Shown here piece by piece: positions 3,188 through 61,096 of a stretch of 64,000 nucleotides of DNA (the first letter of the stretch is position 1; each line of letters begins with the position of its first letter). The stretch lies in IMG/VR virus record IMGVR_UViG_3300021226_000189, one strand, 5' to 3'. The DNA is from a virus. The notes beneath the pieces are model-generated. The model had not been told where the DNA came from, searched no databases, and saw only the letters and a list, made by a program, of their open reading frames with translations. Both the position numbers and the translations under genes were made by a program.

Positions 3188-3622
3188 ATGAGTGAAATGG
3201 AAAAATATTTATTTGTAGGTGGAAAAGCGGATGGTCACATGATTATGTTGAATCGTAACCATCACCATCACCAAATTCCTTACCTAGATGCAGAATTTAG
3301 CGGTGAGTATCACGAACATACTCCAGTTAAAGCGGAATTGTATCGGAAAATTAAATGGGAGAGCGGAGACAGAGAAATATTTGAATTTTTCGCATTAGAG
3401 TCTCTTTCAAACTCTGAGGTTATGAGTATTATATTGAATAATTATAAACCAAAGCAAGAGGTTAGAGAAAATAAATTAATCAGTGAAATGAAATTTTTAT
3501 TAAACGAGTGTATATCAATGTTGAATTTTGCTCATCCTTATATAACTATATGGTCAGATAGTAATATGATATCAAAACATATTTCAAAAATTCACAAGTT
3601 TCTAAATTTGAATAAAAACTAG
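3188..3622 (+). CDS. hypothetical protein
   Basis: 144-aa ORF; TAG stop lies inside the AAAAACTAG motif. Confidence 0.65.
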   Translation: MSEMEKYLFVGGKADGHMIMLNRNHHHHQIPYLDAEFSGEYHEHTPVKAELYRKIKWESGDREIFEFFALESLSNSEVMSIILNNYKPKQEVRENKLISEMKFLLNECISMLNFAHPYITIWSDSNMISKHISKIHKFLNLNKN

Positions 3623-3630
3623 AATATACT
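3614..3630 (+). promoter_or_regulatory. class II promoter AAAAACTAG-aa-TATACT
   Basis: One of 7 copies; 6 nt before ATG 3637. Confidence 0.75.
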
Positions 3631-3636
3631 GAAATT

Positions 3637-3876
3637 ATGATTGATTACAAAGAATTATTCGACTGGCTAGATGAAAATGCTAGCGAACTTGTATGTGAAA
3701 CATGGGCTATCGCTGATACTGGTGAATACGACTCACAGTGGGTGGTCTATGAGGGATATGGTAAAGAACGAAAAGCCATGGGGTGGGGTTCTACGCCTGA
3801 TAAAGCAATCCATGATGCAATGAAAGATTCCGAAGATCCGACGAAATATAATTACATTCCACCAGAATATAGATAA
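3637..3876 (+). CDS. hypothetical protein
   Basis: 79-aa ORF directly after class II promoter. Confidence 0.7.
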   Translation: MIDYKELFDWLDENASELVCETWAIADTGEYDSQWVVYEGYGKERKAMGWGSTPDKAIHDAMKDSEDPTKYNYIPPEYR

Positions 3877-3878
3877 TC

Positions 3879-4295
3879 TTACTGAGACTTCTTTGCAGTC
3901 AGAAACGCTTGCTGAAGAGCAGCAAGGTCAGAAGCAATTCGACCGATTTTAACTTGTTGGTTTTTCAGATTACCTAAAATAGACTCTGGATTTGCCGTGG
4001 CAAGGACACTTTGAATACTATTTGGCTGATCGCCGTTGAGATATCCAAGGAATTTGTCAATATTCGCAGACCATTTATCGATAACGCTAACCATTTGCTC
4101 ATTTTGTCGAGCTACAGCATCACCAATTTCATCTACCGCATCTGGATCAGGTTCAACATCCACATCGTAATCATCCATGGATACATCATCATCCAGTGAC
4201 ATTTCAGCAGCATCACGCTCTAAAGTAGGATCGATATCGAGTTCAGGAGCTTCTTTGAGTAATTTGAGGAATTTAGCTTTGAATTTGTTCTGCAT
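3879..4295 (-). CDS. late protein with propeptide-like leader (putative head-internal protein)
   Basis: MQNKFKAKFLKLLKE-A start; TAAATA (tattta 4301-4306) 5 nt before ATG. Confidence 0.55.
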   Translation of the reverse strand: MQNKFKAKFLKLLKEAPELDIDPTLERDAAEMSLDDDVSMDDYDVDVEPDPDAVDEIGDAVARQNEQMVSVIDKWSANIDKFLGYLNGDQPNSIQSVLATANPESILGNLKNQQVKIGRIASDLAALQQAFLTAKKSQ

Positions 4296-4321
4296 ATCTT
4301 TATTTAGTGGAATTGGTGTTA

Positions 4322-4338
4322 AAAAACTAGAATATATT
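4322..4338 (+). promoter_or_regulatory. class II promoter AAAAACTAG-aa-TATATT
   Basis: 7 nt before GTG 4346. Confidence 0.7.
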
Positions 4339-4345
4339 AGTAATT

Positions 4346-4564
4346 GTGAAAAAGAAAGACTTGATTAAAGCATTGGAAAAATTTGAAGATGATGACCGTA
4401 TCATGATCGGTGATGGAGTATGGTCGTGGGTTCCTAAAATTACTAGAATATGTGGTGGGAGACAAAAATATATGCCATATTACTGTATCCGTGAGAAAGG
4501 ACATGAAGGGGATTGTTATTGCGGGTGTAAGTATGTTGATTTTGAAGCTGAAACATACGATTAA
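4346..4564 (+). CDS. small Cys/His-rich hypothetical protein
   Basis: 72 aa; CIREKGHEGDCYCGC possible Zn site. Confidence 0.6.
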   Translation: MKKKDLIKALEKFEDDDRIMIGDGVWSWVPKITRICGGRQKYMPYYCIREKGHEGDCYCGCKYVDFEAETYD

Positions 4565-4579
4565 TTGTTAAATAATAAC

Positions 4580-4933
4580 ATGTCTGCTTCCAATTCTCCA
4601 TATTCCACCGCTATTGCTTCAGGAGCCATCGATTTCGACTTTGAAAGTTCACTAAATCCGTCCCAACAAATGAGAAAATATAAAACGGATGAAAAATTGG
4701 CAGAAGCACCTCATACTTTACCGTTTGAGTTTGGAGATCTACCACAATCGTTGGCAAACATTGTAGATAATGCGTTCGCTGCGTCTTCCAAGTTGGAGAA
4801 CATCATAAAAATGGAAAAATATCAGAAAAATGGTGATTTGATCAAGTTGAAAGGTAATCTGGAAAAAATGATCATGTATTTGATGGAAAATGGTGATAAA
4901 ACTCTTGAAAAATACACCATAGGTAACGAATAA
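4580..4933 (+). CDS. hypothetical late protein
   Basis: TAAATA 4569-4574 then ATG 4580. Confidence 0.7.
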   Translation: MSASNSPYSTAIASGAIDFDFESSLNPSQQMRKYKTDEKLAEAPHTLPFEFGDLPQSLANIVDNAFAASSKLENIIKMEKYQKNGDLIKLKGNLEKMIMYLMENGDKTLEKYTIGNE

Positions 4934-4949
4934 AAAACTAGATTACAAT
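4933..4949 (+). promoter_or_regulatory. class II promoter AAAAACTAG-at-TACAAT
   Basis: 6 nt before ATG 4956. Confidence 0.75.
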
Positions 4950-4955
4950 CAGGGT

Positions 4956-5147
4956 ATGTTCGAGATACCCGATAAATCAGATTTAACACATATTAACACT
5001 TATGAACCACTGGTTCAATTGTTAATCCTTAAAGACATTTGTCATAAAATTTATATCAATCGCAATATTTCCATGTCTCAGGAGAATATTATTGACAATC
5101 TGGAGAAAATTGATATTCTCTTTAGAGATAGAGAAAATTTTAATTAA
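4956..5147 (+). CDS. hypothetical protein
   Basis: 63-aa ORF after class II promoter. Confidence 0.6.
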   Translation: MFEIPDKSDLTHINTYEPLVQLLILKDICHKIYINRNISMSQENIIDNLEKIDILFRDRENFN

Positions 5148-5148
5148 T

Positions 5149-5547: not shown

Positions 5548-5777
5548 AAGCAAATTATAGGGGTTTTGAAATAGAATCGAAAAGTGAAAAATCTTTAGGT
5601 GGATGGAATGAAGTCTATTGGAGTGCTTATCGAACATCAGATGGTTATGAATTAGCTTGTGGATTCGGTGACGGCACTGTTCGAGAGATGTTTTCTTGTA
5701 TGAAAACAATCGTAGATAGGTTTATTGATGAATATGATGAAAATGTAGAAGAATATGAAAAACATGAAGGATATTAG
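5544..5777 (+). CDS. hypothetical protein
   Basis: ATGA overlap with upstream stop. Confidence 0.6.
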   Translation: MKANYRGFEIESKSEKSLGGWNEVYWSAYRTSDGYELACGFGDGTVREMFSCMKTIVDRFIDEYDENVEEYEKHEGY

Positions 5778-6522
5778 TATTGAAAATCACGAAGCATATA
5801 AAAATTGTGGAGGAAAGTTGATCTGTCAATTGATTGGTGGTTCGACTCTGTATGGATTGAATACACCAGAATCGGATGTCGATCATCGTGGTCTATTTGT
5901 AGCTAAAAATAAGCGATATTTGGCTAATCTGGACACGATTGAGTCTATTGTTCAGACTGGTGATATTGATTCCACTTATTACGAGATTACTCGTTACTTG
6001 AAATTGTTGAGAAAGAGTAATACTCAGGTGTTGGAGATTCTATTTGCACCCGATACAGCATTTACATACAAGCATCCAATTTTTGATGAAATCGTTGCAC
6101 ATGCTTATGACCTTATTGACACGAATACTCTCAAGAATTCGTTGAAAGGTTATGTATTCAGTGAAATTAAATTGGCAACTGGTCAAAGAAGTGGTCAATT
6201 GGGGGGTAAAAGGAAAAAAGCAGTGGAAACCTACGGATTCAGCCCGAAAAACTTTGTCCAAATCCTTCGATTGTGTAAGGTTGGTATCGAGTTCTTCACT
6301 ACTGGTAAATACATGGTGAACGTCAAGGAATTTGATGAGAAGTATTGGGAGAAATTGATGGACTTAAAAACTAGCCCACAATACTACACCTGCGAGCAAC
6401 TGGAACGAATGGTGAACGAAGAATTCGCCAAATTGGAAGGAGTAATGGAGTCATCTAATATCTCTTTCAAATTTAATCCAGATATTGCAGCAGATATCAT
6501 TTTAAAAGTAAAAAATATATGA
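5755..6522 (+). CDS. RlaP-like pol-beta-family nucleotidyltransferase
   Basis: GGSTLYGLNTPESDVDHRG (GS...SDxD) signature; start may be 5764. Confidence 0.8.
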   Translation: MKNMKDISIENHEAYKNCGGKLICQLIGGSTLYGLNTPESDVDHRGLFVAKNKRYLANLDTIESIVQTGDIDSTYYEITRYLKLLRKSNTQVLEILFAPDTAFTYKHPIFDEIVAHAYDLIDTNTLKNSLKGYVFSEIKLATGQRSGQLGGKRKKAVETYGFSPKNFVQILRLCKVGIEFFTTGKYMVNVKEFDEKYWEKLMDLKTSPQYYTCEQLERMVNEEFAKLEGVMESSNISFKFNPDIAADIILKVKNI

Positions 6523-12722: not shown

Positions 12723-14908
12723 TTGAAGTAGATGATATTATTTAATTCGGTAGTTACTGGTGTGAAGTCATCACATGTTTTCTGAATTATTCGCTCCAAA
12801 TCCGATTTAATACTTTCGGGTAAGGTCGTATTTCTGATTAATATGTTGATATGATTAGATTTGAATGATTGGTTATTACAAATAGACTGTAGTAAATCAA
12901 TTTCATCATCATTATTTCTCTGACCACACGGAAGTGTTATCTCAATTTTGTCAACTCTTGCATTATCATTGACAAATGGTAATATCAGAGATTCATTGAA
13001 GGTTGTGGATTTCAAATATAATGAAAAATTGTTCTCATTATTAAAATTCGCAATAAAATTACCGAACAACACTTTCTTACCAAAAAATTGATACTTGTCG
13101 AAATTAATATTCAACACAATCTTCCCATTCAGATTCGCATAAGCGATTCCTTTCATAACATTTATTGAAAAAACGATATGATTATCCTTCAGAACTTTTA
13201 TCGGTTGAATAGTATTGAATTTGTTGTATGTATTATCACTTGGATCAAACGATATATAAGTTAATTCCACGAAATTACCATTTTTAATGATTTCTAGTCC
13301 AGCTTCTATATTGTTTCTATTACTTTTGAAAATCCAATTGCTATAATCACCCTTAAAGTTTAATAATAAAGTGAATTCTCCTGCATCATTTATCTTTTCG
13401 AAATAATTTAGATTGTCTTCATCACATAAATCAATTCTATCATCGGTAAGGATTGGATCAAAATCACCAATTCTTTCATAAACAAATTTATCATTTGGTT
13501 CAATAACAAAATCACTTTTCTTATCAAAAACTTGGAAAGCTGATAAGCTATCCCTGATAAAAGCATCATTTTTCACTAGATTTTCGACCAAATCTTCATA
13601 TGTCGGATTGAAAGTGGCTTTGAGTTTTAGTGCTTGTTCTTTTTCGATGAAATCAGGATAGTAATAACGATCAACCCAAATCTTTTCATCGCCTAATGGT
13701 GAACCCGATAACCAAGTGCATAGATAAACCTGACCATCACTGTAAAGATTATCATCATCAAGCTTATAAACTTTGTCAGAGTAAATTGGGGTGTCGAATG
13801 AGAACGCACCACATTCTACAAATTTAGTATCGTTGATATTTATTTTTAGAAAAGGGGCGAGACTAGAAGGTGCTTTCAAGTAATTCTTACCACTTTTTAT
13901 CACATAAGATTTATTGTAAAAGACATAATTCAACGTCAATTCTTCGTCTTTTTCTTTAGTAATATCGTTGAAAATAGACGTGTAATCTCTCATTTTATCT
14001 ATAAAGAACGGAGAACCTGATGTTGATAATAGATTGTTACCAGATGTAAATGTATCATCCTGTGTTAATTGATTTTTCAACACCAACAATTCCACCTCAT
14101 CATTTTCACTATGTATCAGATAATTATTTTCGATATTTTTCTCTATCAAATTGTTTGGTATAGTATTATCAGTATCGTATCCAACAATACTGAAATTTGC
14201 CATGTCTTCCACTTTCGAATAAAGTGGTCTATCAATATAGATAGTATTAGTCACTGCCAACACCTTATTAAATTCTGAAAATGGTGTTAAATTCAATGAA
14301 GTACCGCTTTTCGTCAGCATTTTACAAGTGGAATTACTATTCTCGAAAAGAGAAATGCTATTATTCGTCGCTGAATAAATGTAATTGAATACAATCGGTG
14401 ATATACCAATTTTATTTCCGAAAAATGAAATTCTATTATTATCTATCCCTAAATAATACTTTTTGTATTGATATAAGAAGTAGATCTTACAGGTGTTATC
14501 TTGTCCTATTTCTATGATGAAATTGGAAGCACTGTTTTTATCTGTCGTGAACCCATAATCACCATATTGATCGTATTTCGAATATTCCTCATTTTCTGTA
14601 AAGCGTAACACACCGAAATCTCTAGGTGAAAATGTTAAAAAAGATCCACCGAAATTCAATGTTGTTAAAATATCATCAGATTTGATTGGATTTGTTTCTG
14701 AGGATACTATGTCTGTTAATTTGAAATTTTTAGTGAGATAAAAAGAACTGTAATTTTTGAATTTTACATCCCTAACATCGGCAAATGCATCATAAAAATT
14801 AAAAGAAAATCCGCCATCATAATATCTTTGATACTTATTCAAAGTATTGATGTTGGAAGAATACGTTCTAGGGGAACAAGAAGATAATTTATTTACTGAA
14901 ACATCCAC
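12719..14908 (-). CDS. putative virion structural protein
   Basis: 729 aa, GTG start with TAAATA (tattta 14914-14919) 5 nt upstream. Confidence 0.55.
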   Translation of the reverse strand: MDVSVNKLSSCSPRTYSSNINTLNKYQRYYDGGFSFNFYDAFADVRDVKFKNYSSFYLTKNFKLTDIVSSETNPIKSDDILTTLNFGGSFLTFSPRDFGVLRFTENEEYSKYDQYGDYGFTTDKNSASNFIIEIGQDNTCKIYFLYQYKKYYLGIDNNRISFFGNKIGISPIVFNYIYSATNNSISLFENSNSTCKMLTKSGTSLNLTPFSEFNKVLAVTNTIYIDRPLYSKVEDMANFSIVGYDTDNTIPNNLIEKNIENNYLIHSENDEVELLVLKNQLTQDDTFTSGNNLLSTSGSPFFIDKMRDYTSIFNDITKEKDEELTLNYVFYNKSYVIKSGKNYLKAPSSLAPFLKININDTKFVECGAFSFDTPIYSDKVYKLDDDNLYSDGQVYLCTWLSGSPLGDEKIWVDRYYYPDFIEKEQALKLKATFNPTYEDLVENLVKNDAFIRDSLSAFQVFDKKSDFVIEPNDKFVYERIGDFDPILTDDRIDLCDEDNLNYFEKINDAGEFTLLLNFKGDYSNWIFKSNRNNIEAGLEIIKNGNFVELTYISFDPSDNTYNKFNTIQPIKVLKDNHIVFSINVMKGIAYANLNGKIVLNINFDKYQFFGKKVLFGNFIANFNNENNFSLYLKSTTFNESLILPFVNDNARVDKIEITLPCGQRNNDDEIDLLQSICNNQSFKSNHINILIRNTTLPESIKSDLERIIQKTCDDFTPVTTELNNIIYFK

Positions 14909-17963: not shown

Positions 17964-17968
17964 TTTTA

Positions 17969-22306: not shown

Positions 22307-22327
22307 TATTTAGGTAAATGTTAAATA
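22307..22327. promoter_or_regulatory. divergent pair of late promoters (TAAATA)
   Basis: tattta 22307-22312 (5 nt from minus start 22301) and TAAATA 22322-22327 (5 nt from ATG 22333). Confidence 0.75.
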
Positions 22328-22332
22328 ATAAC

Positions 22333-31357: not shown

Positions 31358-31381
31358 CATTGGAGAATTTTGTGATATTTT
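31354..31381 (+). promoter_or_regulatory. sigma70-type promoter
   Basis: TTGACA 31354-31359, 16-nt spacer ending TGa, TATTTT 31376-31381, 6 nt before ATG 31388. Confidence 0.65.
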
Positions 31382-31387
31382 ATTATC

Positions 31388-31597
31388 ATGAACGTTAGAG
31401 AAGAACATCTAGTGAAAGAAGAATATTATCAAAAATTTATTTCTGATATGCATCAGACGGCATCTGCTTATGAAAAACAGGCTATGAAAATGTTCATAGA
31501 CAGTGACTTACATAAAGGTCATTGTGCCATGGATAATGCTAGAGCTTTGAGAGCTGCTGCGAATATTATGGATAATACTGCATGTGACGGTAGCTGA
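31388..31597 (+). CDS. hypothetical protein
   Basis: 69-aa ORF after sigma70-type promoter. Confidence 0.6.
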   Translation: MNVREEHLVKEEYYQKFISDMHQTASAYEKQAMKMFIDSDLHKGHCAMDNARALRAAANIMDNTACDGS

Positions 31598-32002: not shown

Positions 32003-32611
32003 ATGAGTAATACAGAAATCAGGCAGTCATATTTGAATAAAGCTAGAAAAGATAAATTTTTGCTAGTTTTTGATATTCCTCCTATTTTGAAAGGTATCCA
32101 ATCGAATTATACGAGAAAAGATGATACTATAATTCCTGATAGTGTCCAATTCAGCGTTTTTGGGACTATGGTTCCAGGTGTTACCGTTAAAGGTGTACCA
32201 GTTCGATACACGGGGGACACTTTATATATTTCATCACATAATAAAGACCCATATCCACCAGTAAACGTTAAATTCGTTGTAGATAGTGGATATAATAACT
32301 ATTGGGTGATTTATCAATGGTTGAATTTATTACATGATCAGAAAACTGGTCAATACAATGCTTCCAGATTAAAATCTGAATGTAATTTCACTGATTACCA
32401 GACAGATATCTCATTGTATGGATTAGATGAATATAATAATAAAGTTATCGAATTTAGATACACAAAATGTTTCCCAACCAGTCTAGATGAATTGTCATTT
32501 GATGCTAAATCTACGGGAGAAATGGAATTGGAGTCAGGATTCACTTTCCTATTTTCCCAAATGCATATTAGTTTACTTGGTTGTGATAGAACTGAAAACA
32601 CATTAATTTGA
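32003..32611 (+). CDS. tail completion/tube-terminator protein (T4 gp3-like)
   Basis: YPPVNVKFVVD..YNNY..I.QW; F.Y..CFPTSL..LSFD; upstream of sheath. Confidence 0.65.
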   Translation: MSNTEIRQSYLNKARKDKFLLVFDIPPILKGIQSNYTRKDDTIIPDSVQFSVFGTMVPGVTVKGVPVRYTGDTLYISSHNKDPYPPVNVKFVVDSGYNNYWVIYQWLNLLHDQKTGQYNASRLKSECNFTDYQTDISLYGLDEYNNKVIEFRYTKCFPTSLDELSFDAKSTGEMELESGFTFLFSQMHISLLGCDRTENTLI

Positions 32612-34982: not shown

Positions 34983-35008
34983 TTTAAACCAATAGAATAA
35001 ATAATAAT

Positions 35009-35602
35009 ATGCCTACAAATATTGAAAACTTCATGAATACAGCGGCACAGAAGCAGTTCTCTAGGGACTTTCTGTTTCGTGTTAAACAAATCGACATCAC
35101 AGGATTGCAATTGGACGGTGAAAATGAGTTGATTTACGCTAGATCTGCCACATTTCCTGGTAGAGATATTGAAAATAAACAAGTTAATTACGCTGGTCAA
35201 ACGTTCAACCTGCCTGGTAAATCATCTTATCCAGGTTCTGATTCTTGGTCTATCGAATTTTTCGTTGACCAAGATATGGAAATTAGAACTCAGCTAGAGA
35301 GAGCTTCTAGAATTCTGTTTAATAATGAAGGTCCTGCTGGTGGTAATATTTGTATGCCAGGTCAAGACTCCACTATTACATTGGAAGTATTTAGAATTCC
35401 ATGTGGTGGTGGTATTATTAATCCCATGCAAGTCGGCACGGTGATTCAATTGGTCGGTGCTTCTTTAAGAAACATCGGTGAAATTAGTTATGAGATTGCT
35501 GATGGAACTGGTGAAGTGAAAACCTTCTCAGCTACATTCGCATATCATTTTTATAGAGATTTTAGCAATCCTAACTTTTTGGGTTTCTTTAATACTTTGT
35601 AA
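35009..35602 (+). CDS. gp19: tail tube protein (T4 gp19-like)
   Basis: SATFPG, LPGK..Y..W...F..D, F..TF.Y; directly after sheath. Confidence 0.85.
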   Translation: MPTNIENFMNTAAQKQFSRDFLFRVKQIDITGLQLDGENELIYARSATFPGRDIENKQVNYAGQTFNLPGKSSYPGSDSWSIEFFVDQDMEIRTQLERASRILFNNEGPAGGNICMPGQDSTITLEVFRIPCGGGIINPMQVGTVIQLVGASLRNIGEISYEIADGTGEVKTFSATFAYHFYRDFSNPNFLGFFNTL

Positions 35603-44593: not shown

Positions 44594-44613
44594 TCGCCTG
44601 ATTAAATAATTAG

Positions 44614-46563
44614 GTGAACACGGATCAAATATTATTAGATTTACTTGACCACCTAAGAAAAACAGATGAACAAAAAGGTGTTCAGGGTGAAACATTGTCT
44701 GAGAAGAATATAATTCAAAATGACAACGCCGATCCTAATAAAAAAATCTCTTCAACTCTATCTTCAGTTGAAGAGAGAAGAACTATTTCGATAGCTAAAA
44801 TCTTAGCTAAAACTTTTTTCGAAGTAAAGAAAAAAAATACCAAAGACACTGCCTTAAAAACTTCCTTTCAAAGAATAACACCTTCTTCTAAAACACCTTC
44901 TTCTAAAATAGAAAAAGTTAAAAATTTTGTTGATGAGAAAAAGGAACAATCCATATGGTGGTTACTTTTCGGTACTATAGGAACTCTTTTAACTGGATTA
45001 ATAACCGATGGACCTTTCAAAGGTATTTTGAAAATTTTATCAAAAATGGGTTTTAAAATTCTTGGTGGTTTTACGAAAATAATTTCAAAAATTTTCGGTA
45101 AAATTACAAATTTTGGTAAAATCTTTAAAGGTGGTAAGATAGCTGATTTTTTTGGTGATATTGTTAAAAATTTTAGCGATGATTTCCTCAAAGGTTTTAA
45201 ATCTGTTGCTTCAAAACCTTTTAGTAATATTGGAAAAATTTTCAAAGGTGGTGGTATGCTTGCTAAAATGGGTAAATTTTTGAAACCATTACTTCCCGCA
45301 TTGAAAAAAGCACCATTGTTGGGTAATATCATTTCCATAGGATTTGCAATTTCAAGATTCATGCAAGGGGATATAACTGGTGGTGTTATCGACACTTTGA
45401 GCGCATTGAGTGGATTATTATACCCTGTTGCTCCACCATTGGCTTATGGTCTAGGTATTGGTCTTGATGTGTTGAATGCTTTTCTAGATGTGAAACAAGC
45501 ATCTCCTGAAAATAAAGGAAAGGGTAAAGGACAAATTCTTTGGGAAATGACAAAATCATTGAGTTCTTACATATGGAAAAAATCTTATAATATTCCAATA
45601 TTAGGTGGAGTTAGAAGATTTATGGATGCTTATGACATGTTCAAGTCTGGAAACATAGTAGGTGGTCTTAAAAAGATGGCAACTGGTATGATAGCTTTTA
45701 CTGGTTTAGCACCTGTAGCAACTGGAATGGAAATGTTGGGAGATTTTTTAGTAGGTAAAACACCAGAGGAGAAAGCAAATAGTAAAATAAAAAGCTTATG
45801 GGGAATGACTAAATCATTGGGTTCTTACATATGGAAAAAATCTTATAATATTCCAATATTAGGTGGAGTTAGAAGATTTATGGATGCTTATGATCTTTTT
45901 AAATCTGGAGATATCGTAGGTGGTCTTAAAAAGATGGGAACTGGTATGATAGCTTTAACTGGTTTAGCACCTGTAGCAACTGGAATGGAAATGTTGGCTG
46001 GGATGTTTTCCAATAATGATAAAAAAGAAACTAAAATAAAACCAAATACTTCTTGGATTAAAAATGTTAAAAAATTTATTAAAGGGAAAATGAGCGAATT
46101 ACCATACATTTTGAGAAAACCTTTGGAATGGATGGGTATTTTAGATGGTAATGGAGCGGAGAATGAAAAAAATCTCAAAATGTTAAGTTCCCCTAAAAAT
46201 AAATCTGGTGAATTTGCAAATGGAAAAATTCCTGTTAAAAAACAAGATATTCTTGTTAAAAAACAAGATATTAAAGTTACTAATGATAATCCTAAACCAA
46301 TTGCTAATATATCAAATAATATTAAAGGTTTGGAAGAAATGACGGATGTGAATTATGGACAATTAAAAGTTTTAGAAGAATTACGCAATATCAACGCTCA
46401 AACTTTGAAAGTGATAGCTGACATTTCTAGACAAAATGGTAAACCACAAAATGTCAATATCCCAAATCCTACATCTTCCGATAGAATTTCTAAAGGTGGT
46501 AATCCAGTGAAAATGAAAATTAGTAGAGATGATTATGGATATTCACCATATGCTTTAGTTTAA
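44614..46563 (+). CDS. putative tape measure / tail-length protein
   Basis: Gly/Lys/Phe amphipathic repeats, hydrophobic segments, internal duplication; precedes baseplate hub genes. Confidence 0.55.
   Translation: MNTDQILLDLLDHLRKTDEQKGVQGETLSEKNIIQNDNADPNKKISSTLSSVEERRTISIAKILAKTFFEVKKKNTKDTALKTSFQRITPSSKTPSSKIEKVKNFVDEKKEQSIWWLLFGTIGTLLTGLITDGPFKGILKILSKMGFKILGGFTKIISKIFGKITNFGKIFKGGKIADFFGDIVKNFSDDFLKGFKSVASKPFSNIGKIFKGGGMLAKMGKFLKPLLPALKKAPLLGNIISIGFAISRFMQGDITGGVIDTLSALSGLLYPVAPPLAYGLGIGLDVLNAFLDVKQASPENKGKGKGQILWEMTKSLSSYIWKKSYNIPILGGVRRFMDAYDMFKSGNIVGGLKKMATGMIAFTGLAPVATGMEMLGDFLVGKTPEEKANSKIKSLWGMTKSLGSYIWKKSYNIPILGGVRRFMDAYDLFKSGDIVGGLKKMGTGMIALTGLAPVATGMEMLAGMFSNNDKKETKIKPNTSWIKNVKKFIKGKMSELPYILRKPLEWMGILDGNGAENEKNLKMLSSPKNKSGEFANGKIPVKKQDILVKKQDIKVTNDNPKPIANISNNIKGLEEMTDVNYGQLKVLEELRNINAQTLKVIADISRQNGKPQNVNIPNPTSSDRISKGGNPVKMKISRDDYGYSPYALV
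45541..45997 (+). repeat. direct repeat, 199-bp near-identical copies at 258-bp period
   Basis: 45541-45739 and 45799-45997: W.MTKSL.SYIWKKSYNIPILGGVRRFMDAYD...GMEML. Confidence 0.95.
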
Positions 46564-51493: not shown

Positions 51494-51521
51494 TTGACAT
51501 TCTATAAATCAACGATAAAGT
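51494..51521 (+). promoter_or_regulatory. possible sigma70-type promoter for rmlB
   Basis: TTGACA 51494-51499, 16 nt, TAAAGT 51516-51521. Confidence 0.45.
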
Positions 51522-51530
51522 AATGGAAAT

Positions 51531-52496
51531 ATGGTAGATTTAACAAACAAAACGATACTTGTCACGGGTGGTGGTGGATTTATTGGTAGTAATTTTATTG
51601 AAATGGTGTTGAAAAAATATTACTACTGCAACGTCATAAACATTGACAAGCGTGGTATTGGTTCAAGGTCTTTGATAGACGAATCTTATAATTGGATTGG
51701 AACACAGCGAAGAAATCTATATTATGAATATATGGAAAACTTGATGTATTTAGATTTATCCTTGAGTCGAACTAAACAATGGAAATTCGATTACATCTTC
51801 CATTTTGCTGCTGAATCCCATGTTGATCGTAGTATCAATTCCCCTGAAGCATTTATTGAAAACAATGTGATGGGTATGGTATCTCTATTGGAGTGGGTGC
51901 GAAAATATCAATCTCAAGCAAAGGTTATTAATATCTCTACGGATGAAGTGTTTGGTCATTTGAATGCGAATGATCCTGCTTTCACTGAAGAATCACCATT
52001 TAATCCAAGAAGTCCTTACGCTGCATCCAAAGCATCCGCTGATCTGATTGCCAATGCTTACGTTACCACTTATGGTTTGGATATCACTACGACACATTGT
52101 TGTAACAATTTTGGCAAACACCAAGCAGATGAAAAATTTATCCCCACTGTAATCCGCTCTATTGTGAGGGGAGAACCTATCCCTGTCTATGGAACAGGTG
52201 AGAACATTCGGGAATGGATTCATGTCGAAGATCATAACAAATGGTTGCTTGAAATTGCTGGTAATCATCACTGTTCTACAAATATTGGGTCGGGGATTGA
52301 AAAAACAAACCTTGACATGATCAAAGATATTGGTAATATATTGGGAGTGGAACCCCAAATTAAATTCGTCGAAGATAGAAAAGGACATGACTTCCGTTAT
52401 GCTATCGAATCTTATATTCCATTTGAATTGAGAAATCACGAAGAAGCTCTTAAAGAAACTGTTGAATTTTACAAAAACAAATACCAAGTGGTCTAA
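51531..52496 (+). CDS. rmlB: dTDP-glucose 4,6-dehydratase
   Basis: TGGGGFIGSN, HFAAESHVDRSI, STDEVFG, SPYAASKAS, DRKGHD.RY. Confidence 0.95.
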   Translation: MVDLTNKTILVTGGGGFIGSNFIEMVLKKYYYCNVINIDKRGIGSRSLIDESYNWIGTQRRNLYYEYMENLMYLDLSLSRTKQWKFDYIFHFAAESHVDRSINSPEAFIENNVMGMVSLLEWVRKYQSQAKVINISTDEVFGHLNANDPAFTEESPFNPRSPYAASKASADLIANAYVTTYGLDITTTHCCNNFGKHQADEKFIPTVIRSIVRGEPIPVYGTGENIREWIHVEDHNKWLLEIAGNHHCSTNIGSGIEKTNLDMIKDIGNILGVEPQIKFVEDRKGHDFRYAIESYIPFELRNHEEALKETVEFYKNKYQVV

Positions 52497-55205: not shown

Positions 55206-55375
55206 AAAAACAATTCGATTACGGGAATTATATCATTTCCTATAGAAAAGAAAAAGACGGTCTTCTCCATTTCTTAAAGAAGAACATCGCCACGTTGGAT
55301 GACGCTTTGAAAGAGCATCATAAATTACAAGATTTAGGTTATCATGATGTTTTGATTAAAAAATTTAGAAAATGA
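55202..55375 (+). CDS. hypothetical protein (57 aa, not in track)
   Basis: MKKQFDYGNYIISYRKE...; ATGA overlaps at both ends. Confidence 0.6.
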   Translation: MKKQFDYGNYIISYRKEKDGLLHFLKKNIATLDDALKEHHKLQDLGYHDVLIKKFRK

Positions 55376-55560
55376 AATACACAGGTAATATTAATAGCTA
55401 CACCTTTATTATGAAGGAAGGTGATGATGTAATCGAGGTATGGTCAGATATGGATGCGGAATTTCCAGAATCATATATCTACCTAAAAGAGGGTGAAATT
55501 AAGAGTGAGCGTCATTTCCACATGGAGATATCGGATTGGTGGATGCGAAATAAAAACTAG
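55372..55560 (+). CDS. hypothetical protein
   Basis: 62 aa; TAG stop inside AAAAACTAG motif. Confidence 0.6.
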   Translation: MKYTGNINSYTFIMKEGDDVIEVWSDMDAEFPESYIYLKEGEIKSERHFHMEISDWWMRNKN

Positions 55561-55568
55561 CTTACAAT
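55552..55568 (+). promoter_or_regulatory. class II promoter AAAAACTAG-ct-TACAAT
   Basis: 8 nt before ATG 55577. Confidence 0.7.
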
Positions 55569-55576
55569 CGGTTGCG

Positions 55577-56137
55577 ATGGACAAACATTACAAACACATC
55601 GTTGACGATACAAACGGTAAAAGCAGTGAAGAACTGAGAACTGATATTTTAAAAGAAATTGACGAAGCTATTGTGGCCACCTCGGATGAAGAGTTGGCAG
55701 AATATTTCCAAATGAGAAAAGTTGATTACTCTATGAAAAAAGTGATTTTGATTAGAGCAGTCAGCGGTGCTGGTAAATCAACTTTTGCTGAAATGCTTGC
55801 ACCTGATTTTTATATCTGTTGTGCTGATGATTTCTTCACAGACGACCAAGGTAATTACAATTTCGATGCTTCCAAGCTTGGACAGGCTCATAAAGCTTGT
55901 CAAGAAAAGTATCTCAAATTGGTGGATCATCCATATATAGATCTTATTGTTGTTTCAAACACGAACACGAAAGAATCTGATTATAAGTTTTATCTTGACG
56001 AAGCGGAAAAGCGTGGTATTATGGTTTTCTCGTTGGTGCTTGAGAATAGGCATGGTGGTAAAAACTTACATGGAGTACCTGACCATGTGCTTGAGCGTCA
56101 GGAACAGAATATTAAAAACAGCTTAAAATTGCGATGA
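55577..56137 (+). CDS. P-loop kinase (AAA_33 / polynucleotide-kinase-like)
   Basis: LIRAVSGAGKST, CCADDFF, VSNTNT, ENRHG..N.HGVP. Confidence 0.8.
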   Translation: MDKHYKHIVDDTNGKSSEELRTDILKEIDEAIVATSDEELAEYFQMRKVDYSMKKVILIRAVSGAGKSTFAEMLAPDFYICCADDFFTDDQGNYNFDASKLGQAHKACQEKYLKLVDHPYIDLIVVSNTNTKESDYKFYLDEAEKRGIMVFSLVLENRHGGKNLHGVPDHVLERQEQNIKNSLKLR

Positions 56138-56521: not shown

Positions 56522-56526
56522 AAAAT

Positions 56527-56814: not shown

Positions 56815-56815
56815 T

Positions 56816-57842: not shown

Positions 57843-58267
57843 ACAGAGAAATTAAATTTAGAGTTTGGTGTCCTACATCAAAACATTTTTCGACTCAGCC
57901 TTGGCTTAGTTGTGATGGTTTAATGCTTAAATGGGAGCATACTGGAGATGCACAGACTCTTACGGACATAAGATTTGATAATTATGTTATCCAACAATAC
58001 ACTGGCTTAAAAGACAAGAATGGTAAAGACATTTATGAGGGAGATATTGTAAACATTTTAAAAGAGAATAAATGTTATCCCGTGAATTTCGGCAATTGCT
58101 ACGCTTCTGCTGATGACAACTATTGTGGAACAGAGTGTTTTGGATACCATATAGACGGACAAATTATGGGATCGCGCGAAAGAAATTGGGGAAATGGAGC
58201 ATTAATCACTGAAAATATGGAAGTTGTTGGCAATATCTTTGAAAATCCTGAACTATTGGAAAAATGA
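57839..58267 (+). CDS. YopX-family protein (paralogue)
   Basis: MNREIKFRVW...QYTGLKDKNGKDIYEGDIV...VVGNIFENPELL. Confidence 0.9.
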   Translation: MNREIKFRVWCPTSKHFSTQPWLSCDGLMLKWEHTGDAQTLTDIRFDNYVIQQYTGLKDKNGKDIYEGDIVNILKENKCYPVNFGNCYASADDNYCGTECFGYHIDGQIMGSRERNWGNGALITENMEVVGNIFENPELLEK

Positions 58268-58298
58268 AAAATAGATAGCATTTCTTGTTGAAAGATAT

Positions 58299-58315
58299 AA
58301 AAACTAGAGTATAAT
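58299..58315 (+). promoter_or_regulatory. class II promoter AAAAACTAG-ag-TATAAT
   Basis: Consensus -10 hexamer, 6 nt before ATG 58322. Confidence 0.8.
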
Positions 58316-58321
58316 CCAATT

Positions 58322-58783
58322 ATGAAACTTTTAGGAAAAACAAACGGTGAGAAATTCATCGCATCTTTGCATCATTATCATTGTGTTACTCATGGAGATC
58401 TGATGATGGATGGCGGTCAACCCCATACCAATTTTTATGGTGGTTACAATCGCTTTTCAATGGATGGTCAGACTGTATGGTTCGAATTCAACGCTGACTT
58501 CGCTGAAATCTACAACAGACACAAAGAAACCAGAGGTATTTGGGATGTTAAACAAGGCAAAATCTTATCACCCGAAGAGTATCCAGATGTTAATGATATG
58601 AGTGTGAAAGCGGATAATTTCATTTGGGGGACTTCTGGTAAAGATGGTAAATCCCCTTTGAAATACGTTCTTCTCAAGAATTGTGAGACCGATCATTTGC
58701 AAAATATTCTAGCAAATGTTAAACATATTCAACCAGAAACAAAAAGAGTAATTGAATACATTTTGAAAAACCGTGAATCATAA
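58322..58783 (+). CDS. hypothetical protein
   Basis: 153 aa; HHYHC...DGG, WGT.GKDG..PL motifs. Confidence 0.7.
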   Translation: MKLLGKTNGEKFIASLHHYHCVTHGDLMMDGGQPHTNFYGGYNRFSMDGQTVWFEFNADFAEIYNRHKETRGIWDVKQGKILSPEEYPDVNDMSVKADNFIWGTSGKDGKSPLKYVLLKNCETDHLQNILANVKHIQPETKRVIEYILKNRES

Positions 58784-59009
58784 ATTTTATTATTACAAAT
58801 ACTCTAACGATGGTGGAGAGACTTGGGTTCTTGGACATTATAGTCGTTATCTGATGGATATCATGAAATTGGTTCGTGAGATTCCATTTTACTATCGTTT
58901 TAGAATCTATAATCAAGATGGTGTTGAATTGAATAAAGAAGAGATTAAAGAATCCTTTGATAAAATAGATTTGATGGATTCTATATTTGGAAAAGGAGGG
59001 TGGTTATGA
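58773..59009 (+). CDS. hypothetical protein
   Basis: 78-aa ORF, GTG start, overlapping. Confidence 0.55.
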   Translation: MNHKFYYYKYSNDGGETWVLGHYSRYLMDIMKLVREIPFYYRFRIYNQDGVELNKEEIKESFDKIDLMDSIFGKGGWL

Positions 59010-59245
59010 GAGATCCAATTGCTAAAGAAATTTATAAAAAACAATGGGATTTGGTGAAAAAACACGCTCAAGAACGTTCTGAGTTATTGAATGAAGCCTG
59101 TAAAAGATGGGCAGCGGAAGAAGCGGAACTGTATCAAGAGTGTCTAGAAAAGACAGGTCATAAATTTGTCGTCGTTCCTGATAGAAGTAGGAAATTGAAC
59201 GGTGAATTGAGAGAGTGGTGTGAACACTGTGGGTTATCAAAATGA
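59006..59245 (+). CDS. hypothetical protein with C-terminal CxxC
   Basis: ATGA overlap; C...GH...CEHC. Confidence 0.6.
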   Translation: MRDPIAKEIYKKQWDLVKKHAQERSELLNEACKRWAAEEAELYQECLEKTGHKFVVVPDRSRKLNGELREWCEHCGLSK

Positions 59246-59481
59246 AGCGCGATCTAATATCTCCTAATAATGTTGTCCCTTACTTAAGGGACATGGGGTA
59301 TAACTACTTTTGTAATGAACGTGGTGAACTCGTGTATTTGGGTAATTTTGAAACTTTGAGTTTCTTTCATTATCATACGATGAGAGAAAATTGGTATTTT
59401 TGGCTTGAGGATGATAAGCTATGGTCGGAAAGTATCTGTGGATTTATGATCGTGTTTCCTCTTCGAAAATCGATTGCTTAA
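59242..59481 (+). CDS. hypothetical protein
   Basis: 79-aa ORF, ATGA overlap. Confidence 0.5.
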   Translation: MKRDLISPNNVVPYLRDMGYNYFCNERGELVYLGNFETLSFFHYHTMRENWYFWLEDDKLWSESICGFMIVFPLRKSIA

Positions 59482-59496
59482 AAACTAGAATATGCT
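59480..59496 (+). promoter_or_regulatory. class II promoter AAAAACTAG-aa-TATGCT
   Basis: 6 nt before ATG 59503. Confidence 0.75.
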
Positions 59497-59502
59497 CAAA
59501 GC

Positions 59503-59571
59503 ATGAAAGAACAACACAAACTACCAACATGGCTTGCTATTAGAATCGTGGAAACATTAAACAAAAAATAA
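59503..59571 (+). CDS. 22-aa micro-ORF
   Basis: MKEQHKLPTWLAIRIVETLNKK at the consensus distance from the class II promoter. Confidence 0.45.
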   Translation: MKEQHKLPTWLAIRIVETLNKK

Positions 59572-59575
59572 TAAT

Positions 59576-60499
59576 ATGGGACTATCAAATCAAGAAAGAT
59601 ACAAAAAAATCGTATGGGCTATTCATCACATTGAAGACGAACTTCGTCATCTTCAAAACGATTACCAAACAGAAAGGCTGAAAAAATACGAAGGTAAGCT
59701 GTTTCCTGCGCTATTGAATCAAACAGGTGATCCTGGGTTTTGGATTTATGGCGACAGCTTTGATAGCGACTCTTTTAATGGCTGCGCTCTGATTTCAACT
59801 GCTTTTGAAGCGCACATGGAAGATTTGCGTTTTGAAAAGCAAAAAAGAAAAGGACAAGATTATGTTTTTGAGCATAAACCTGATGTTTTAGAGAACGCCA
59901 TTCAAATCGAAAATCTCATCTCGCATTCTGTTGTCAACGGAAGAGGAGTAGTTAATATTTGGAAGTGGGTTGAATCGTTTCTTTATGCCGCGAATCGGTA
60001 TGCTGATGAAATGTCTGAAAGCTTAACTCCTGTCAAAAATGTTATTTCTAACCTGCAAGGCGATTTGTTTGCTATTATTTCTAAAAATAATCAGTATATG
60101 AGCGCATATCTTATGAGCAGAATTCTCAACAAGTGCGTGGATATTTATGATGATGAAGACATCCTTGTGAAAACAATTAGAAGCATGTATTTGCATCATA
60201 ATTTCAATGTCGATGAAAGCACTAATGTTGAAGTTTTGATGGATATGTGGGTAGACATCCAATTCAAATGCAATTCAGACATCGAAACCAATACGAAAAT
60301 CCTATATACTCTTCGTTGCATGGGGAGGAGAGTAGTTGATAGTAAAGAAGGGATTTTCAACGCTTTGAAAGATCATGTAGATCACGATTCTTTTGAGGAA
60401 GTATTCAAACAACTCACCAAAGAGAAGGAAGAATATGACGAGAAAAACAAATACGTTCCTCGCGATCATTGTGATTTGACTTGGAGATGGAAATACTAA
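59576..60499 (+). CDS. hypothetical protein
   Basis: 307-aa ORF. Confidence 0.7.
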   Translation: MGLSNQERYKKIVWAIHHIEDELRHLQNDYQTERLKKYEGKLFPALLNQTGDPGFWIYGDSFDSDSFNGCALISTAFEAHMEDLRFEKQKRKGQDYVFEHKPDVLENAIQIENLISHSVVNGRGVVNIWKWVESFLYAANRYADEMSESLTPVKNVISNLQGDLFAIISKNNQYMSAYLMSRILNKCVDIYDDEDILVKTIRSMYLHHNFNVDESTNVEVLMDMWVDIQFKCNSDIETNTKILYTLRCMGRRVVDSKEGIFNALKDHVDHDSFEEVFKQLTKEKEEYDEKNKYVPRDHCDLTWRWKY

Positions 60500-60500
60500 T

Positions 60501-60755
60501 ATGCAAAAACTAATTTTGCGATACTTTTGGGATGATCAAGGTGCTTATTGTGGATACGAACATCTACCGTTTGAATACTCTAGTAAAGAGCAAGCTTTTG
60601 TTGATTTTTTTACACTCTATGAAAAAGAAGATCCTTTTTGCTTCCTTGGAGAAAAATTTGAAAAAGGTATGCTGTGTGATTATCCCGAAATTCTGACACT
60701 CGACGAGTGGTTTGAAAGCAACAAATTAAACAATAAAAATGAACATCCAATTTAA
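60501..60755 (+). CDS. hypothetical protein
   Basis: 84-aa ORF. Confidence 0.6.
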   Translation: MQKLILRYFWDDQGAYCGYEHLPFEYSSKEQAFVDFFTLYEKEDPFCFLGEKFEKGMLCDYPEILTLDEWFESNKLNNKNEHPI

Positions 60756-61080
60756 ATCAACCAAACAAGAACTGCCTAAACACAAGCAGTATATCTTGTA
60801 TATTAAAAGAGAACAGTCTATGTTTTACAAGGATTCACCATTACCGACATTTACTAAATGTGAATGGTCTTGGCATGATGGTGACGGCTCTCAAATATGT
60901 CACAATAATAAATATTCAGTTGAAAAGCCACCAGAGGAATATCCATTTCTTTTGATTCTTGATGGCGAGGGTTATACTATCTGGACAAACGAAACAAGTA
61001 AACATGATCCAGAAATCGAACATTTTTGGTGGATTGATCAAAAAGAGTTTGATAAAATCTGGGAAAATACTAAACATTAA
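60739..61080 (+). CDS. hypothetical protein
   Basis: 113-aa ORF. Confidence 0.6.
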   Translation: MNIQFKSTKQELPKHKQYILYIKREQSMFYKDSPLPTFTKCEWSWHDGDGSQICHNNKYSVEKPPEEYPFLLILDGEGYTIWTNETSKHDPEIEHFWWIDQKEFDKIWENTKH

Positions 61081-61096
61081 AAAACTAGACTACACT
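61080..61096 (+). promoter_or_regulatory. class II promoter AAAAACTAG-ac-TACACT
   Basis: 6 nt before ATG 61103. Confidence 0.75.

What the first reader, a model, noticed from the sequence alone, without database searches (positions are those of the whole stretch)
3614..61096. Second promoter class AAAAACTAG-NN-TAnnnT (7 copies), also spaced for leaderless starts
Seen: identical 9-mer AAAAACTAG at 3614, 4322, 4933, 55552, 58299, 59480 and 61080, each followed by 2 nt and a -10-like hexamer (TATACT, TATATT, TACAAT, TACAAT, TATAAT, TATGCT, TACACT), then 6-8 nt to the start codon (6 in five cases). No consistent -35 box. All head clusters of small non-structural genes; the motif overlaps the upstream stop (TAG at 3622 and 55560). 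Established: a sigma70 -10 box sits at -12 to -7, so a 6-nt gap puts +1 on the A of ATG. Inference: an early/middle promoter class with an element at about -23 to -15, closer to the -10 than the T4 MotA box, read by a phage activator or an unusual host sigma.
Basis: partly seen in the sequence, partly recalled or inferred. Interest (0 to 1): 0.8.

Follow-up and report, generated by a model that had tools for sequence, protein, structure and literature searches.

The report
Phage-private leaderless promoter box
An uncultured T4-like phage starts many of its small early genes from one fixed promoter in which a private 8-9 base box next to a normal -10 element replaces the usual -35 element, and the promoter sits so close to the gene that the message should begin at the start codon; what reads the box is unknown.

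Summary
AAAAACTAG occurs 9 times in the window, against 1.2 expected. Seven + strand copies have the full layout: box, 2 nt, TAnnnT, then 6-8 nt to ATG or GTG.

Seven related IMG/VR phage contigs carry the same box in more than 300 further copies, almost all on one strand. The window's contig is about 39% of a roughly 190-kb T4-like genome.

Across these copies sequence information is confined to -26..-7 plus C(-1)A(+1)TG. There is none at -35. The invariant parts are A5CTA at -23..-16, A(-11) and T(-7).

Two results mark it as a transcription signal rather than a translation signal:
- The pyrimidine/purine pair stays 6/7 nt after the hexamer even where the ATG lies 3 nt further on.
- The box also abuts four tRNA genes within a few nt of their 5' ends.

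The same genomes hold a separate canonical class (TTGACA, 16 nt, often TGn, TAnnnT) and TAAATA late promoters with a gp55-like sigma. No MotA or AsiA was found.

My reading is a phage-private, -35-independent early or middle promoter giving leaderless mRNAs.

This scan had already described the same design, on this genome and on other lake phages. I rate it a new variant of a known kind.

The parts
3614..3639 (+). Promoter copy 1: box 3614-3622, -10 TATACT 3625-3630, ATG 3637. It heads the 79-aa ORF 3637-3876. The upstream ORF 3188-3622 ends on the TAG of the box.
4322..4348 (+). Promoter copy 2: box 4322-4330, -10 TATATT 4333-4338, GTG 4346 (7-nt gap). It heads the 72-aa ORF 4346-4564. Promoter plus gene (about 4316-4567) is missing as a unit from relative G004, where two divergent TAAATA late promoters sit back to back.
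4933..4958 (+). Promoter copy 3: box 4933-4941, -10 TACAAT 4944-4949, ATG 4956. It heads a + strand gene run to about 7249 that includes an RlaP-like nucleotidyltransferase. At the orthologous site in four genomes the 9-mer is invariant while the hexamer varies (TACAAT, TATAAT, TATAGT, CATAAT).
55552..55579 (+). Promoter copy 4: box 55552-55560, -10 TACAAT 55563-55568, ATG 55577 (8-nt gap; 6 nt in the G004 and G003 orthologues). It heads a 186-aa ATPase or kinase-like gene and six small ORFs. The upstream ORF 55372-55560 ends on the TAG of the box.
58299..58324 (+). Promoter copy 5: box 58299-58307, -10 TATAAT 58310-58315, ATG 58322. It heads the 153-aa ORF and three small ORFs. It also has TTGAAA 16 nt upstream, so it is a hybrid with a near -35. 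Its orthologue in G001 has AAAAACTAA, and the neighbouring gene order is swapped there.
59480..59505 (+). Promoter copy 6: box 59480-59488, -10 TATGCT 59491-59496, ATG 59503. It opens a 22-codon mini-ORF (59503-59571), followed by the 307-aa ORF 59576-60499.
61080..61105 (+). Promoter copy 7: box 61080-61088, -10 TACACT 61091-61096, ATG 61103. It heads the 144-aa ORF 61103-61537.
6366..6382 (+). Off-pattern eighth + strand copy (box + cc + CACAAT) inside the nucleotidyltransferase gene. It encodes L-K-T-S. It is kept in close relatives G001 and G004 but is not at the orthologous codons in G003. It is probably a coding coincidence, though an internal promoter is not excluded.
32063..32071 (-). 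A lone minus-strand 9-mer with no -10-like hexamer and no start codon. I take it as a chance match.

Best explanation
AAAAACTA(G/A/C)-NN-(T/C)AnnnT is a phage-private, -35-independent promoter class of a clade of uncultured T4-like phages.

The -10 part (A at -11 and T at -7 invariant) is read as a sigma70-family -10 element by the host RNA polymerase. The box at -23..-16 supplies the second anchor that -35 or TGn supplies at ordinary promoters.

Transcription starts on the purine 7 nt after the hexamer. In most copies this is the A of the ATG, so the first gene of each unit is made from a leaderless mRNA. Downstream genes have no Shine-Dalgarno sequence and mostly follow by ATGA stop-start overlap.

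The class drives the arrays of small early-type genes and some tRNA genes. Promoter plus gene behaves as a movable cassette.

Shown in silico: the signal is real, is strand-specific, is kept across the lineage, and is placed as a promoter would be.

Inferred:
- The start point.
- The polymerase.
Within this explanation, my split of the remaining odds is about 55:45 in favour of a phage-supplied protein made early or injected (a functional analogue of MotA/AsiA) over the polymerase reading the box unaided.
For: 1) Excess and polarity.
- The window has 9 copies against 1.2 expected.
- Counts for the box plus hexamer on the coding strand versus the other strand are 84/1 in G001, 20/0 in G004, 14/0 in G002 and 15/0 in G003; the reversed-pattern control gives 0-1.
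- With a looser pattern G010 has 76, G009 has 37 and G006 has 14.

2) Not conditioned on the hexamer. Of 92 AAAAACTAG on the G001 coding strand, 84 have TAnnnT exactly 2 nt later (chance about 3%), and 77 have a start codon 5-9 nt after that.

3) Logo. Information lies only at -26..-7 and at C(-1)A(+1)TG, with none at -35. In the first 80 kb of G001 all nine one-mismatch copies carry AAAAACTAA. In G003 the -15 base is C, G or A, and -12 is often C.

4) Start point.
- The gap from the hexamer to the start codon is 6 nt in 61 of 99 (G001), 43 of 79 (G003), 15 of 24 (G004) and 5 of 8 (this contig).
- In 38 copies with a 9-nt gap, positions 6 and 7 after the hexamer are still pyrimidine (35 of 38) and purine (38 of 38).

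5) Four copies abut tRNA genes, with the predicted +1 within about 4 nt of the tRNA 5' end. These are G001 tRNAs at 42748 and 52067, and G003 tRNAs whose 5' ends are at 141727 and 141471.

6) Orthologous site 4933. The 9-mer is identical in four genomes although the flanks are only about 75% identical.

7) The host enzyme looks canonical. TTGAC(A/T)-spacer-TAnnnT peaks sharply at 16 nt (72 sites, 36 with TGn) against a background of about 15. A few box promoters also carry TTGACT or TTGAAA at that same 16-nt distance.

8) Box promoters lack both -35 and TGn and tolerate C at -12. On general knowledge of sigma70 promoters this should be weak for an unaided canonical holoenzyme.

9) A more distant relative, G005 (TerL 51% identical), has leaderless TTGAAA-N17-TATAAT-6-ATG promoters and no box. 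The box is therefore lineage-specific.

10) Precedents. T4 middle promoters replace -35 with a phage-read box (PMC2988021). Thermus phages use -35-independent promoters and leaderless mRNAs (PMC4124052, PMC3594737).
Against: - There are no RNA data, so no transcription start has been mapped.
- No reader was identified. Pfam models for AsiA, MotA_activ and MotCF find nothing even in the complete relative, and the class-S-driven genes I annotated are enzymes, not regulators.
- The box heads the ORFan arrays that in T4 are immediate-early. A factor-dependent class would need the factor to be injected or made first.
- Positions -23..-16 lie where sigma region 3 and the beta-prime zipper touch DNA (general knowledge). 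That leaves little room for a separate protein and fits recognition by the polymerase itself.
- In the window 5 of 7 copies have T rather than C before the ATG, one uses GTG, and one has an 8-nt gap.
- The host is unknown, so its promoter and translation habits cannot be compared.
Confidence: 0.55

Rival explanations
1. This rival agrees on the promoter and the leaderless design but says the host sigma70 holoenzyme reads the box unaided. The A-tract plus CTA would act as a spacer or extended -10-like element, contacted by sigma region 3 or the beta-prime zipper or working through DNA shape. That would make these strong immediate-early promoters that stay active if the phage later blocks -35 recognition.
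For: - The box lies at -23..-16, under the polymerase footprint.
- About a quarter of the canonical TTGACA promoters in the same genomes also carry A5-7 at -23..-19.
- Hybrids with both a -35 and the box exist at the normal 16-nt spacing.
- The class heads the early-type ORFan arrays.
- No activator gene was found.
- T4 early promoters also carry conserved information beyond the standard elements (PMC2988021).
Against: - Near-total invariance of 8 bases in more than 300 copies is unusual for a polymerase-read auxiliary element.
- There is no TGn, and C is tolerated at -12.
- The box is absent from the G005 lineage, which uses ordinary -35/-10 leaderless promoters.
- A 19-of-20-base version of the motif occurs only as 7 single hits among 185,579 species genomes, so no candidate host uses it repeatedly.
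Confidence: 0.3
2. The whole 20-bp block (-26..-7) is one element, read either by a divergent phage-encoded sigma-like subunit or by a phage RNA polymerase. Either could be carried in the virion.
For: - Conservation is contiguous from -26 to -7 with a fixed distance to +1. This resembles single-element promoters of phage sigmas and phage polymerases.
- Divergent phage sigmas escape Pfam. The gp55-like protein itself scores only E about 1e-3 on Sigma70_r2.
- An earlier scan note on this genome reports capsid-targeting peptides on several enzymes; I did not check this.
Against: - The variable positions are exactly those that vary in sigma70 -10 elements, and the invariant ones are -11 and -7.
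- Occasional canonical -35 hexamers sit at the right spacing.
- Only one sigma-like ORF was found, and it matches the late sigma family (phrog_234, E 7e-24), which goes with the separate TAAATA class.
- The Pfam RNA_pol (PF00940) search found nothing, but its control rang nowhere, so that search is inconclusive.
Confidence: 0.1
3. It is not a promoter. It would be a translation or coupling signal, an RNA processing site, or purely a recombination or cassette boundary repeat.
For: - The motif contains stop codons in two frames and ends many upstream ORFs.
- Genes are gained, lost and reordered at it.
Against: - The T/A/T pattern of a -10 hexamer sits at a fixed offset in 84 of 92 copies.
- The Y/R pair tracks the hexamer and not the ATG.
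- Copies precede tRNA genes, which have no ATG.
- Polarity follows gene direction strictly.
- A boundary role is compatible with a promoter role, as in the PeSL cassettes (PMC4122927).
Confidence: 0.04

Closest known systems
T4 middle promoters (MotA box plus sigma70 -10; sigma appropriation by AsiA and MotA; PMC2988021)
   Same: - A host-type -10 element is combined with a phage-specific box that takes the place of -35.
- They occur in a T4-like phage.
- They drive prereplicative genes and tRNA genes.
   Different: - The MotA box (TGCTTtA) is centred at -30 and lies 12 +/- 1 bp from the -10. Here the box is AAAAACTA at -23..-16, 3 bp from the -10.
- No MotA or AsiA homologue was detected.
- The box is nearly invariant, whereas MotA tolerates deviations.
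- The transcripts here are predicted to be leaderless.
Extended -10 (TGn) promoters of Thermus phages P23-45 and phiYS40, with gp39 blocking -35-dependent transcription (PMC4124052, PMC3950348); phiYS40 leaderless middle and late mRNAs (PMC3594737)
   Same: - The phage promoters are independent of -35.
- A proximal element lies next to the -10.
- In phiYS40, most middle and late mRNAs lack a leader.
   Different: - There is no TG at -15/-14 here; the element is longer and lies further upstream.
- The class here heads early-type genes.
- The phage is T4-like, and its host is unknown and not Thermus-like in base composition.
- No gp39 or gp76 analogue was sought or found.
PeSL (promoter-early stem-loop) cassettes of T4-type phages (PMC4122927, PMC2839356)
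   Same: - Repeated early promoters lie in hyperplastic regions of small ORFan genes.
- Relatives differ by gain, loss and reordering of genes at these promoters.
   Different: - PeSL promoters are -35/N17/-10 sigma70 types with an upstream stem-loop and ordinary leaders.
- Here there is no -35 and no stem-loop at the seven window copies; the box replaces -35 and the start codon sits at +1.
Leaderless gene architecture with the -10 next to the ORF in Deinococcus-Thermus (PMC12340547)
   Same: A TAnnnT hexamer lies about 6-7 nt before the start codon, so that +1 falls on the start codon.
   Different: That is a host-wide habit using generic -10 elements. Here it is a phage-wide design with a private invariant box, in a low-GC phage whose genes otherwise lack Shine-Dalgarno sequences.

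Membership tests
Sigma70-type -35/-10 promoter | -10 hexamer TAnnnT at -12..-7, with A(-11) and T(-7) the most conserved positions | tested here: met
   All 7 window copies have it. In G001, 84 of 92 copies have it. In G003, A(-11) and T(-7) are kept while -12 varies.
Sigma70-type -35/-10 promoter | -35 hexamer TTGACA 16-18 nt upstream of the -10 | tested here: not met
   The 83 aligned copies carry about 0 bits at -38..-30. Only about 5 of 99 G001 copies are within one mismatch of TTGACA at 16 nt. The generic sigma70 scan of the window regions is not enriched: 38 against 30.7, and 23 against 22.8.
Extended -10 (TGn) promoter | TG at -15/-14 | tested here: not met
   The bases at -15/-14 are G-A, or C-A or A-A in G003. 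By contrast, 36 of the 72 canonical 16-nt-spacer promoters in the same genomes do have TGn.
T4 middle (MotA-dependent) promoter | MotA box (a/t)(a/t)(a/t)TGCTTtA centred at -30, 12 +/- 1 bp from the -10 | tested here: not met
   There is no information upstream of -26, and the box sequence and position differ (definition from PMC2988021).
T4 middle (MotA-dependent) promoter | The phage encodes MotA and AsiA | tested here: not met
   PF09010, PF09158 and PF09114 give no hit at E <= 1 in G000, G001 or the complete G003. Very divergent analogues are not excluded.
T4 late promoter (gp55) | TATAAATA-type element at -10, read by a gp55-like sigma | tested here: not met
   Box promoters lack TAAATA. 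A separate TAAATA class lies 3-8 nt before 57 G001 genes, and a gp55-like ORF exists (phrog_234, E 7e-24).
PeSL cassette | Terminator-like stem-loop directly upstream of the early promoter | tested here: not met
   No terminator-like site abuts any of the seven window copies. A subset of G001 copies do have GC-rich hairpins upstream; I saw these by eye and did not count them.
PeSL cassette | Indels and reordering of genes between relatives occur at the promoter repeats | tested here: met
   Window 4316-4567 (promoter plus 72-aa gene) is absent from G004. The gene order around 58299 is swapped in G001.
Leaderless mRNA gene | Transcription start coincides with the start codon | not testable with these tools
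   Only geometry is available. The gap is 6 nt in most copies, the Y/R pair is fixed relative to the hexamer, and tRNA 5' ends fall within about 4 nt of the predicted +1. There are no RNA data.

The most novel reading that the evidence does not exclude
A clade of T4-like phages that lacks MotA and AsiA has evolved a different way of redirecting host RNA polymerase. An unknown phage protein, possibly injected, would read an invariant box at -23..-16, directly under sigma region 3, and so make -35 and TGn dispensable. This would be coupled to a genome-wide expression programme free of Shine-Dalgarno sequences: leaderless first genes, ATGA-coupled later genes, and tRNAs transcribed almost without 5' leaders.
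Probability: 0.3. Interest if true: 0.8.

Novelty: new variant of a known kind. Interest (0 to 1): 0.6.

Why it matters
Middle-mode transcription in T4-like phages is understood only for the MotA/AsiA system of T4 itself. Most environmental T4-like phages lack those genes. How they separate their own transcription from the host's is not established, as far as I know.

This clade offers a sharply defined signal. It has hundreds of copies, an 8-base invariant core, and a fixed geometry to +1. It can be tested directly with synthetic templates and used as bait to find its reader.

The design also implies that the unknown host, or the infected cell, translates leaderless and SD-less messages efficiently. 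That is a useful clue to host identity and to phage control of translation.

For annotation, the motif fixes true start codons and gene boundaries in these genomes.

Tried and rejected
- The most repeated words in the contig (TCTAATTTCTTAGGTAATAATGCTGG and similar) turned out to be a 51-nt coding tandem repeat inside ORF 22318-24621, not a promoter.
- blastn of 8 kb of the window against cultured phages found nothing. TerL is only about 33-36% identical to cyanophage, Rhizobium phage and Pseudoalteromonas phage terminases, so no cultured relative or host is available.
- A scan of 185,579 species genomes with a 19-of-20-base version of the motif gave 7 single hits in unrelated taxa, so it gave no host lead.
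- The psbA family is absent from G001 and G003. The Atlas look-up of the dTDP-glucose dehydratase returned mainly viral clusters. The host stays unknown.
- The Pfam RNA_pol (PF00940) search is inconclusive because its control rang nowhere. Sigma70_r4 gave only sub-threshold hits.
- PHROG and Pfam scans of the first genes behind the seven promoters, and of 18 class-S-associated or neighbouring genes in G001, found enzymes and unknowns but no regulator.
- The 6366 copy first looked like a conserved internal promoter because an ATG follows it in G001 and G004. That ATG is out of frame, the 9-mer encodes conserved residues, and the G003 orthologue lacks it at that place. I rejected it as evidence.
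- I considered sigma54 (-24/-12), sigmaS (C at -13), Bacteroidetes (TAnnTTTG) and UP-element readings from memory. I dropped them because the sequences do not fit.
- Literature searches for the 9-mer, and for leaderless early promoters in T4-like phages, gave nothing relevant.

Full report
**Observation**

AAAAACTAG occurs 9 times in the window. One hundred dinucleotide-preserving shuffles give a mean of 1.17 and never more than 4.

Eight copies are on the + strand. Seven of them (3614, 4322, 4933, 55552, 58299, 59480, 61080) are followed by 2 nt, then a TAnnnT hexamer, then 6, 7, 6, 8, 6, 6 and 6 nt to a start codon. Six starts are ATG and one is GTG.

Two copies were not listed. One at 6366 (+) lies inside ORF 5755-6522 and is followed by cc + CACAAT. 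One at 32071 (-) has nothing promoter-like after it.

Five upstream ORFs end on the TAG of the box or on a TAA that runs into its A-tract.

**Context**

The window is bases 14055-78054 of an 81,016-bp virus contig with 34% GC. It encodes a contractile tail sheath and a T4-type large terminase. The terminase is only about 35% identical to any cultured phage.

IMG/VR holds close relatives with TerL 73-93% identical. They include a complete 197.7-kb genome (G003) and a 184-kb contig (G001). Our contig is rated 39% complete. It is collinear with G001 133-179 kb, and its right end matches the first kilobases of G001's long array of small genes.

**Comparative test**

The full pattern is strand-specific in every relative. 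Coding strand versus other strand counts are 84/1 in G001, 20/0 in G004, 14/0 in G002 and 15/0 in G003. The pattern read backwards gives 0-1.

With the hexamer relaxed to nAnnnT and the last base of the box left free, G010 has 76 copies in 40 kb, G009 has 37 and G006 (TerL about 75%) has 14.

The hexamer was not imposed by my search. Of 92 AAAAACTAG on the G001 coding strand, 84 have TAnnnT exactly 2 nt later, where chance would give about 3%. Of those, 77 have a start codon 5-9 nt after it.

A logo of 83 G001 copies carries information only from -26 to -7 and at C(-1)A(+1)TG. The -35 region is flat.

In the first 80 kb of G001 all nine one-mismatch copies carry AAAAACTAA. In G003 the last base of the 9-mer is C (47 copies), G (27) or A (8), and -12 is often C, as in CAAAAT. 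The lineage-wide invariants are therefore A5CTA at -23..-16, A(-11) and T(-7). The TAG as such is not essential.

At the orthologous site of window copy 4933 the 9-mer is identical in four genomes. The hexamer there varies (TACAAT, TATAAT, TATAGT, CATAAT), and the flanks are about 75% identical.

**Why it is a transcription signal with +1 at the start codon**

The gap from the hexamer to the start codon is 6 nt in 61 of 99 G001 copies, 43 of 79 G003 copies, 15 of 24 G004 copies and 5 of 8 copies in this contig. A second peak lies at 9 nt.

In the 6-nt copies the -1/+1 pair is CA (109) or TA (13). In the 38 copies with a 9-nt gap, positions 6 and 7 after the hexamer are still pyrimidine (35 of 38) and purine (38 of 38). 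The start dinucleotide therefore follows the hexamer and not the ATG. Those messages would carry a 3-nt leader.

Four copies abut tRNA genes, which have no ATG. The predicted +1 falls within about 4 nt of the tRNA 5' end.

These two results argue against a translation or coupling signal. No RNA data exist, so the start point remains an inference.

**Other promoter classes in the same genomes**

A canonical class is clearly present. TTGAC(A/T)-spacer-TAnnnT peaks at a 16-nt spacer (72 sites, 36 of them with TGn) and at 17 nt (28 sites), against a background of about 15.

These canonical promoters also sit 6-10 nt from start codons. They drive a DNA methyltransferase, a thymidylate synthase block, the DNA polymerase and a dTDP-glucose dehydratase.

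Late genes carry TAAATA 3-8 nt before the start codon, and a gp55-like late sigma is encoded (phrog_234, E 7e-24).

In G001, my gene calls have 78 starts behind the box, 57 behind TAAATA, 10 behind the canonical class and only 2 with a strict Shine-Dalgarno sequence. The remaining genes have A-rich, G-poor upstream regions, and 69 of 112 overlap the previous gene as ATGA.

**What reads the box**

The -10 part behaves like a sigma70 -10 element. A few box promoters also carry TTGACT or TTGAAA at the normal 16-nt distance, among them window copy 58299. I therefore take the host holoenzyme to be the enzyme.

The box copies lack both -35 and TGn and tolerate C at -12. On general knowledge of sigma70 promoters this should be weak for an unaided canonical holoenzyme, and the TTGACA/TGn class shows the host enzyme is canonical.

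The box is nearly invariant in more than 300 copies. It is absent from the more distant G005 lineage, which uses TTGAAA-N17-TATAAT-6-ATG. It does not recur within any of 185,579 species genomes.

These points favour a phage-supplied reader, as at T4 middle promoters. Several points speak against that view:
- No MotA or AsiA was found.
- No second sigma was found.
- No regulator turned up among the genes I annotated.
- The box heads the ORFan arrays that look immediate-early.
- Positions -23..-16 lie under the polymerase itself.

I leave this at roughly 55:45 for a phage factor against direct recognition by the polymerase. A smaller chance remains that a divergent phage sigma-like protein reads the whole block.

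**Cassette behaviour**

Window 4316-4567, which is promoter 4322 plus its 72-aa gene, is missing as a unit from G004. There, two divergent TAAATA promoters adjoin.

The gene order around 58299 is swapped in G001.

No terminator-like hairpin abuts the seven window copies. They therefore resemble PeSL cassettes in behaviour but not in anatomy. PeSLs have -35/N17/-10 promoters and stem-loops (PMC4122927).

**The 6366 copy**

It is kept in G001 and G004, where an ATG follows. That ATG is out of frame. The 9-mer encodes L-K-T-S of a conserved RlaP-like nucleotidyltransferase, and the G003 orthologue lacks it at that place. I treat it as a probable coding coincidence.

**Comparison with known systems**

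Functionally the closest system is the T4 middle promoter: a phage box plus a sigma70 -10 (PMC2988021). The box sequence, its position (3 bp from the -10 rather than 12) and the absence of MotA and AsiA exclude membership.

Thermus phages P23-45 and phiYS40 show -35-independent promoters and, in phiYS40, leaderless middle and late mRNAs (PMC4124052, PMC3594737). Those promoters use TGn.

Earlier notes of this scan describe the same design. One is on this genome (e1-5817727). Two are on other T4-like lake phages (e1-5369882, e1-5943526). The present finding is therefore a further window of a pattern the scan had already met.

**Verdict**

This is a real, lineage-conserved, phage-private promoter class giving predicted leaderless transcripts. 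It is a new variant of a known kind. Its reader and its timing are unresolved.

Noticed in passing
window 31354-31390 and 51494-51533; also outside the window at contig 5398, 7425, 10822 and 78179: A separate canonical promoter class: TTGACA, 16 nt, often TGn, then TAnnnT. It also lies only 6-14 nt before start codons. Across three genomes the spacer-length count peaks sharply at 16 nt.
   Followed up: partly
window, e.g. 4566-4582, 12723-12737 (-), 17964-17978 (-), 35000-35011, 44600-44616; 57 genes in G001: Late-type promoters (C/T)TAAATAAT lie 3-8 nt before start codons, so late genes too look leaderless. The relatives encode a gp55-like late sigma (L078:15775-16215).
   Followed up: partly
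whole contig and G001: The genome is almost free of Shine-Dalgarno sequences: 2 strict SDs among 309 called genes. Regions upstream of internal genes are A-rich and G-poor, and 69 of 112 internal genes overlap the previous gene as ATGA. This is a clue to a host, or an infected-cell state, that does not rely on SD pairing.
   Followed up: partly
G001 42721-42822 and 52044-52142; G003 141751-141642 and 141492-141397 (minus strand): Box promoters sit directly against tRNA genes, with the predicted +1 within about 4 nt of the tRNA 5' end. These tRNAs may need little or no 5' processing.
   Followed up: partly
window 59503-59571: A 22-codon mini-ORF starts at the predicted +1 of promoter 59480 and ends 4 nt before the 307-aa gene 59576-60499. 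It could be a leaderless upstream ORF used for coupling.
   Followed up: no
window 4296-4582 versus G004 29285-29365: In G004 two divergent TAAATA promoters adjoin. In this contig a 252-bp box-promoter plus 72-aa-gene cassette sits between them.
   Followed up: yes
G001 58196-58260 (L055): At the end of the long early array, inverted and direct copies of the box (CTAGTTTTTT ... AAAAACTAG gg ... AAAAACTAG gg) occur without -10 hexamers. I do not know their role.
   Followed up: no
window 22786-24315: A 51-nt in-phase tandem repeat (17-aa units) lies inside the 767-aa ORF 22318-24621. It accounts for the most frequent 10-12-mers of the contig.
   Followed up: no
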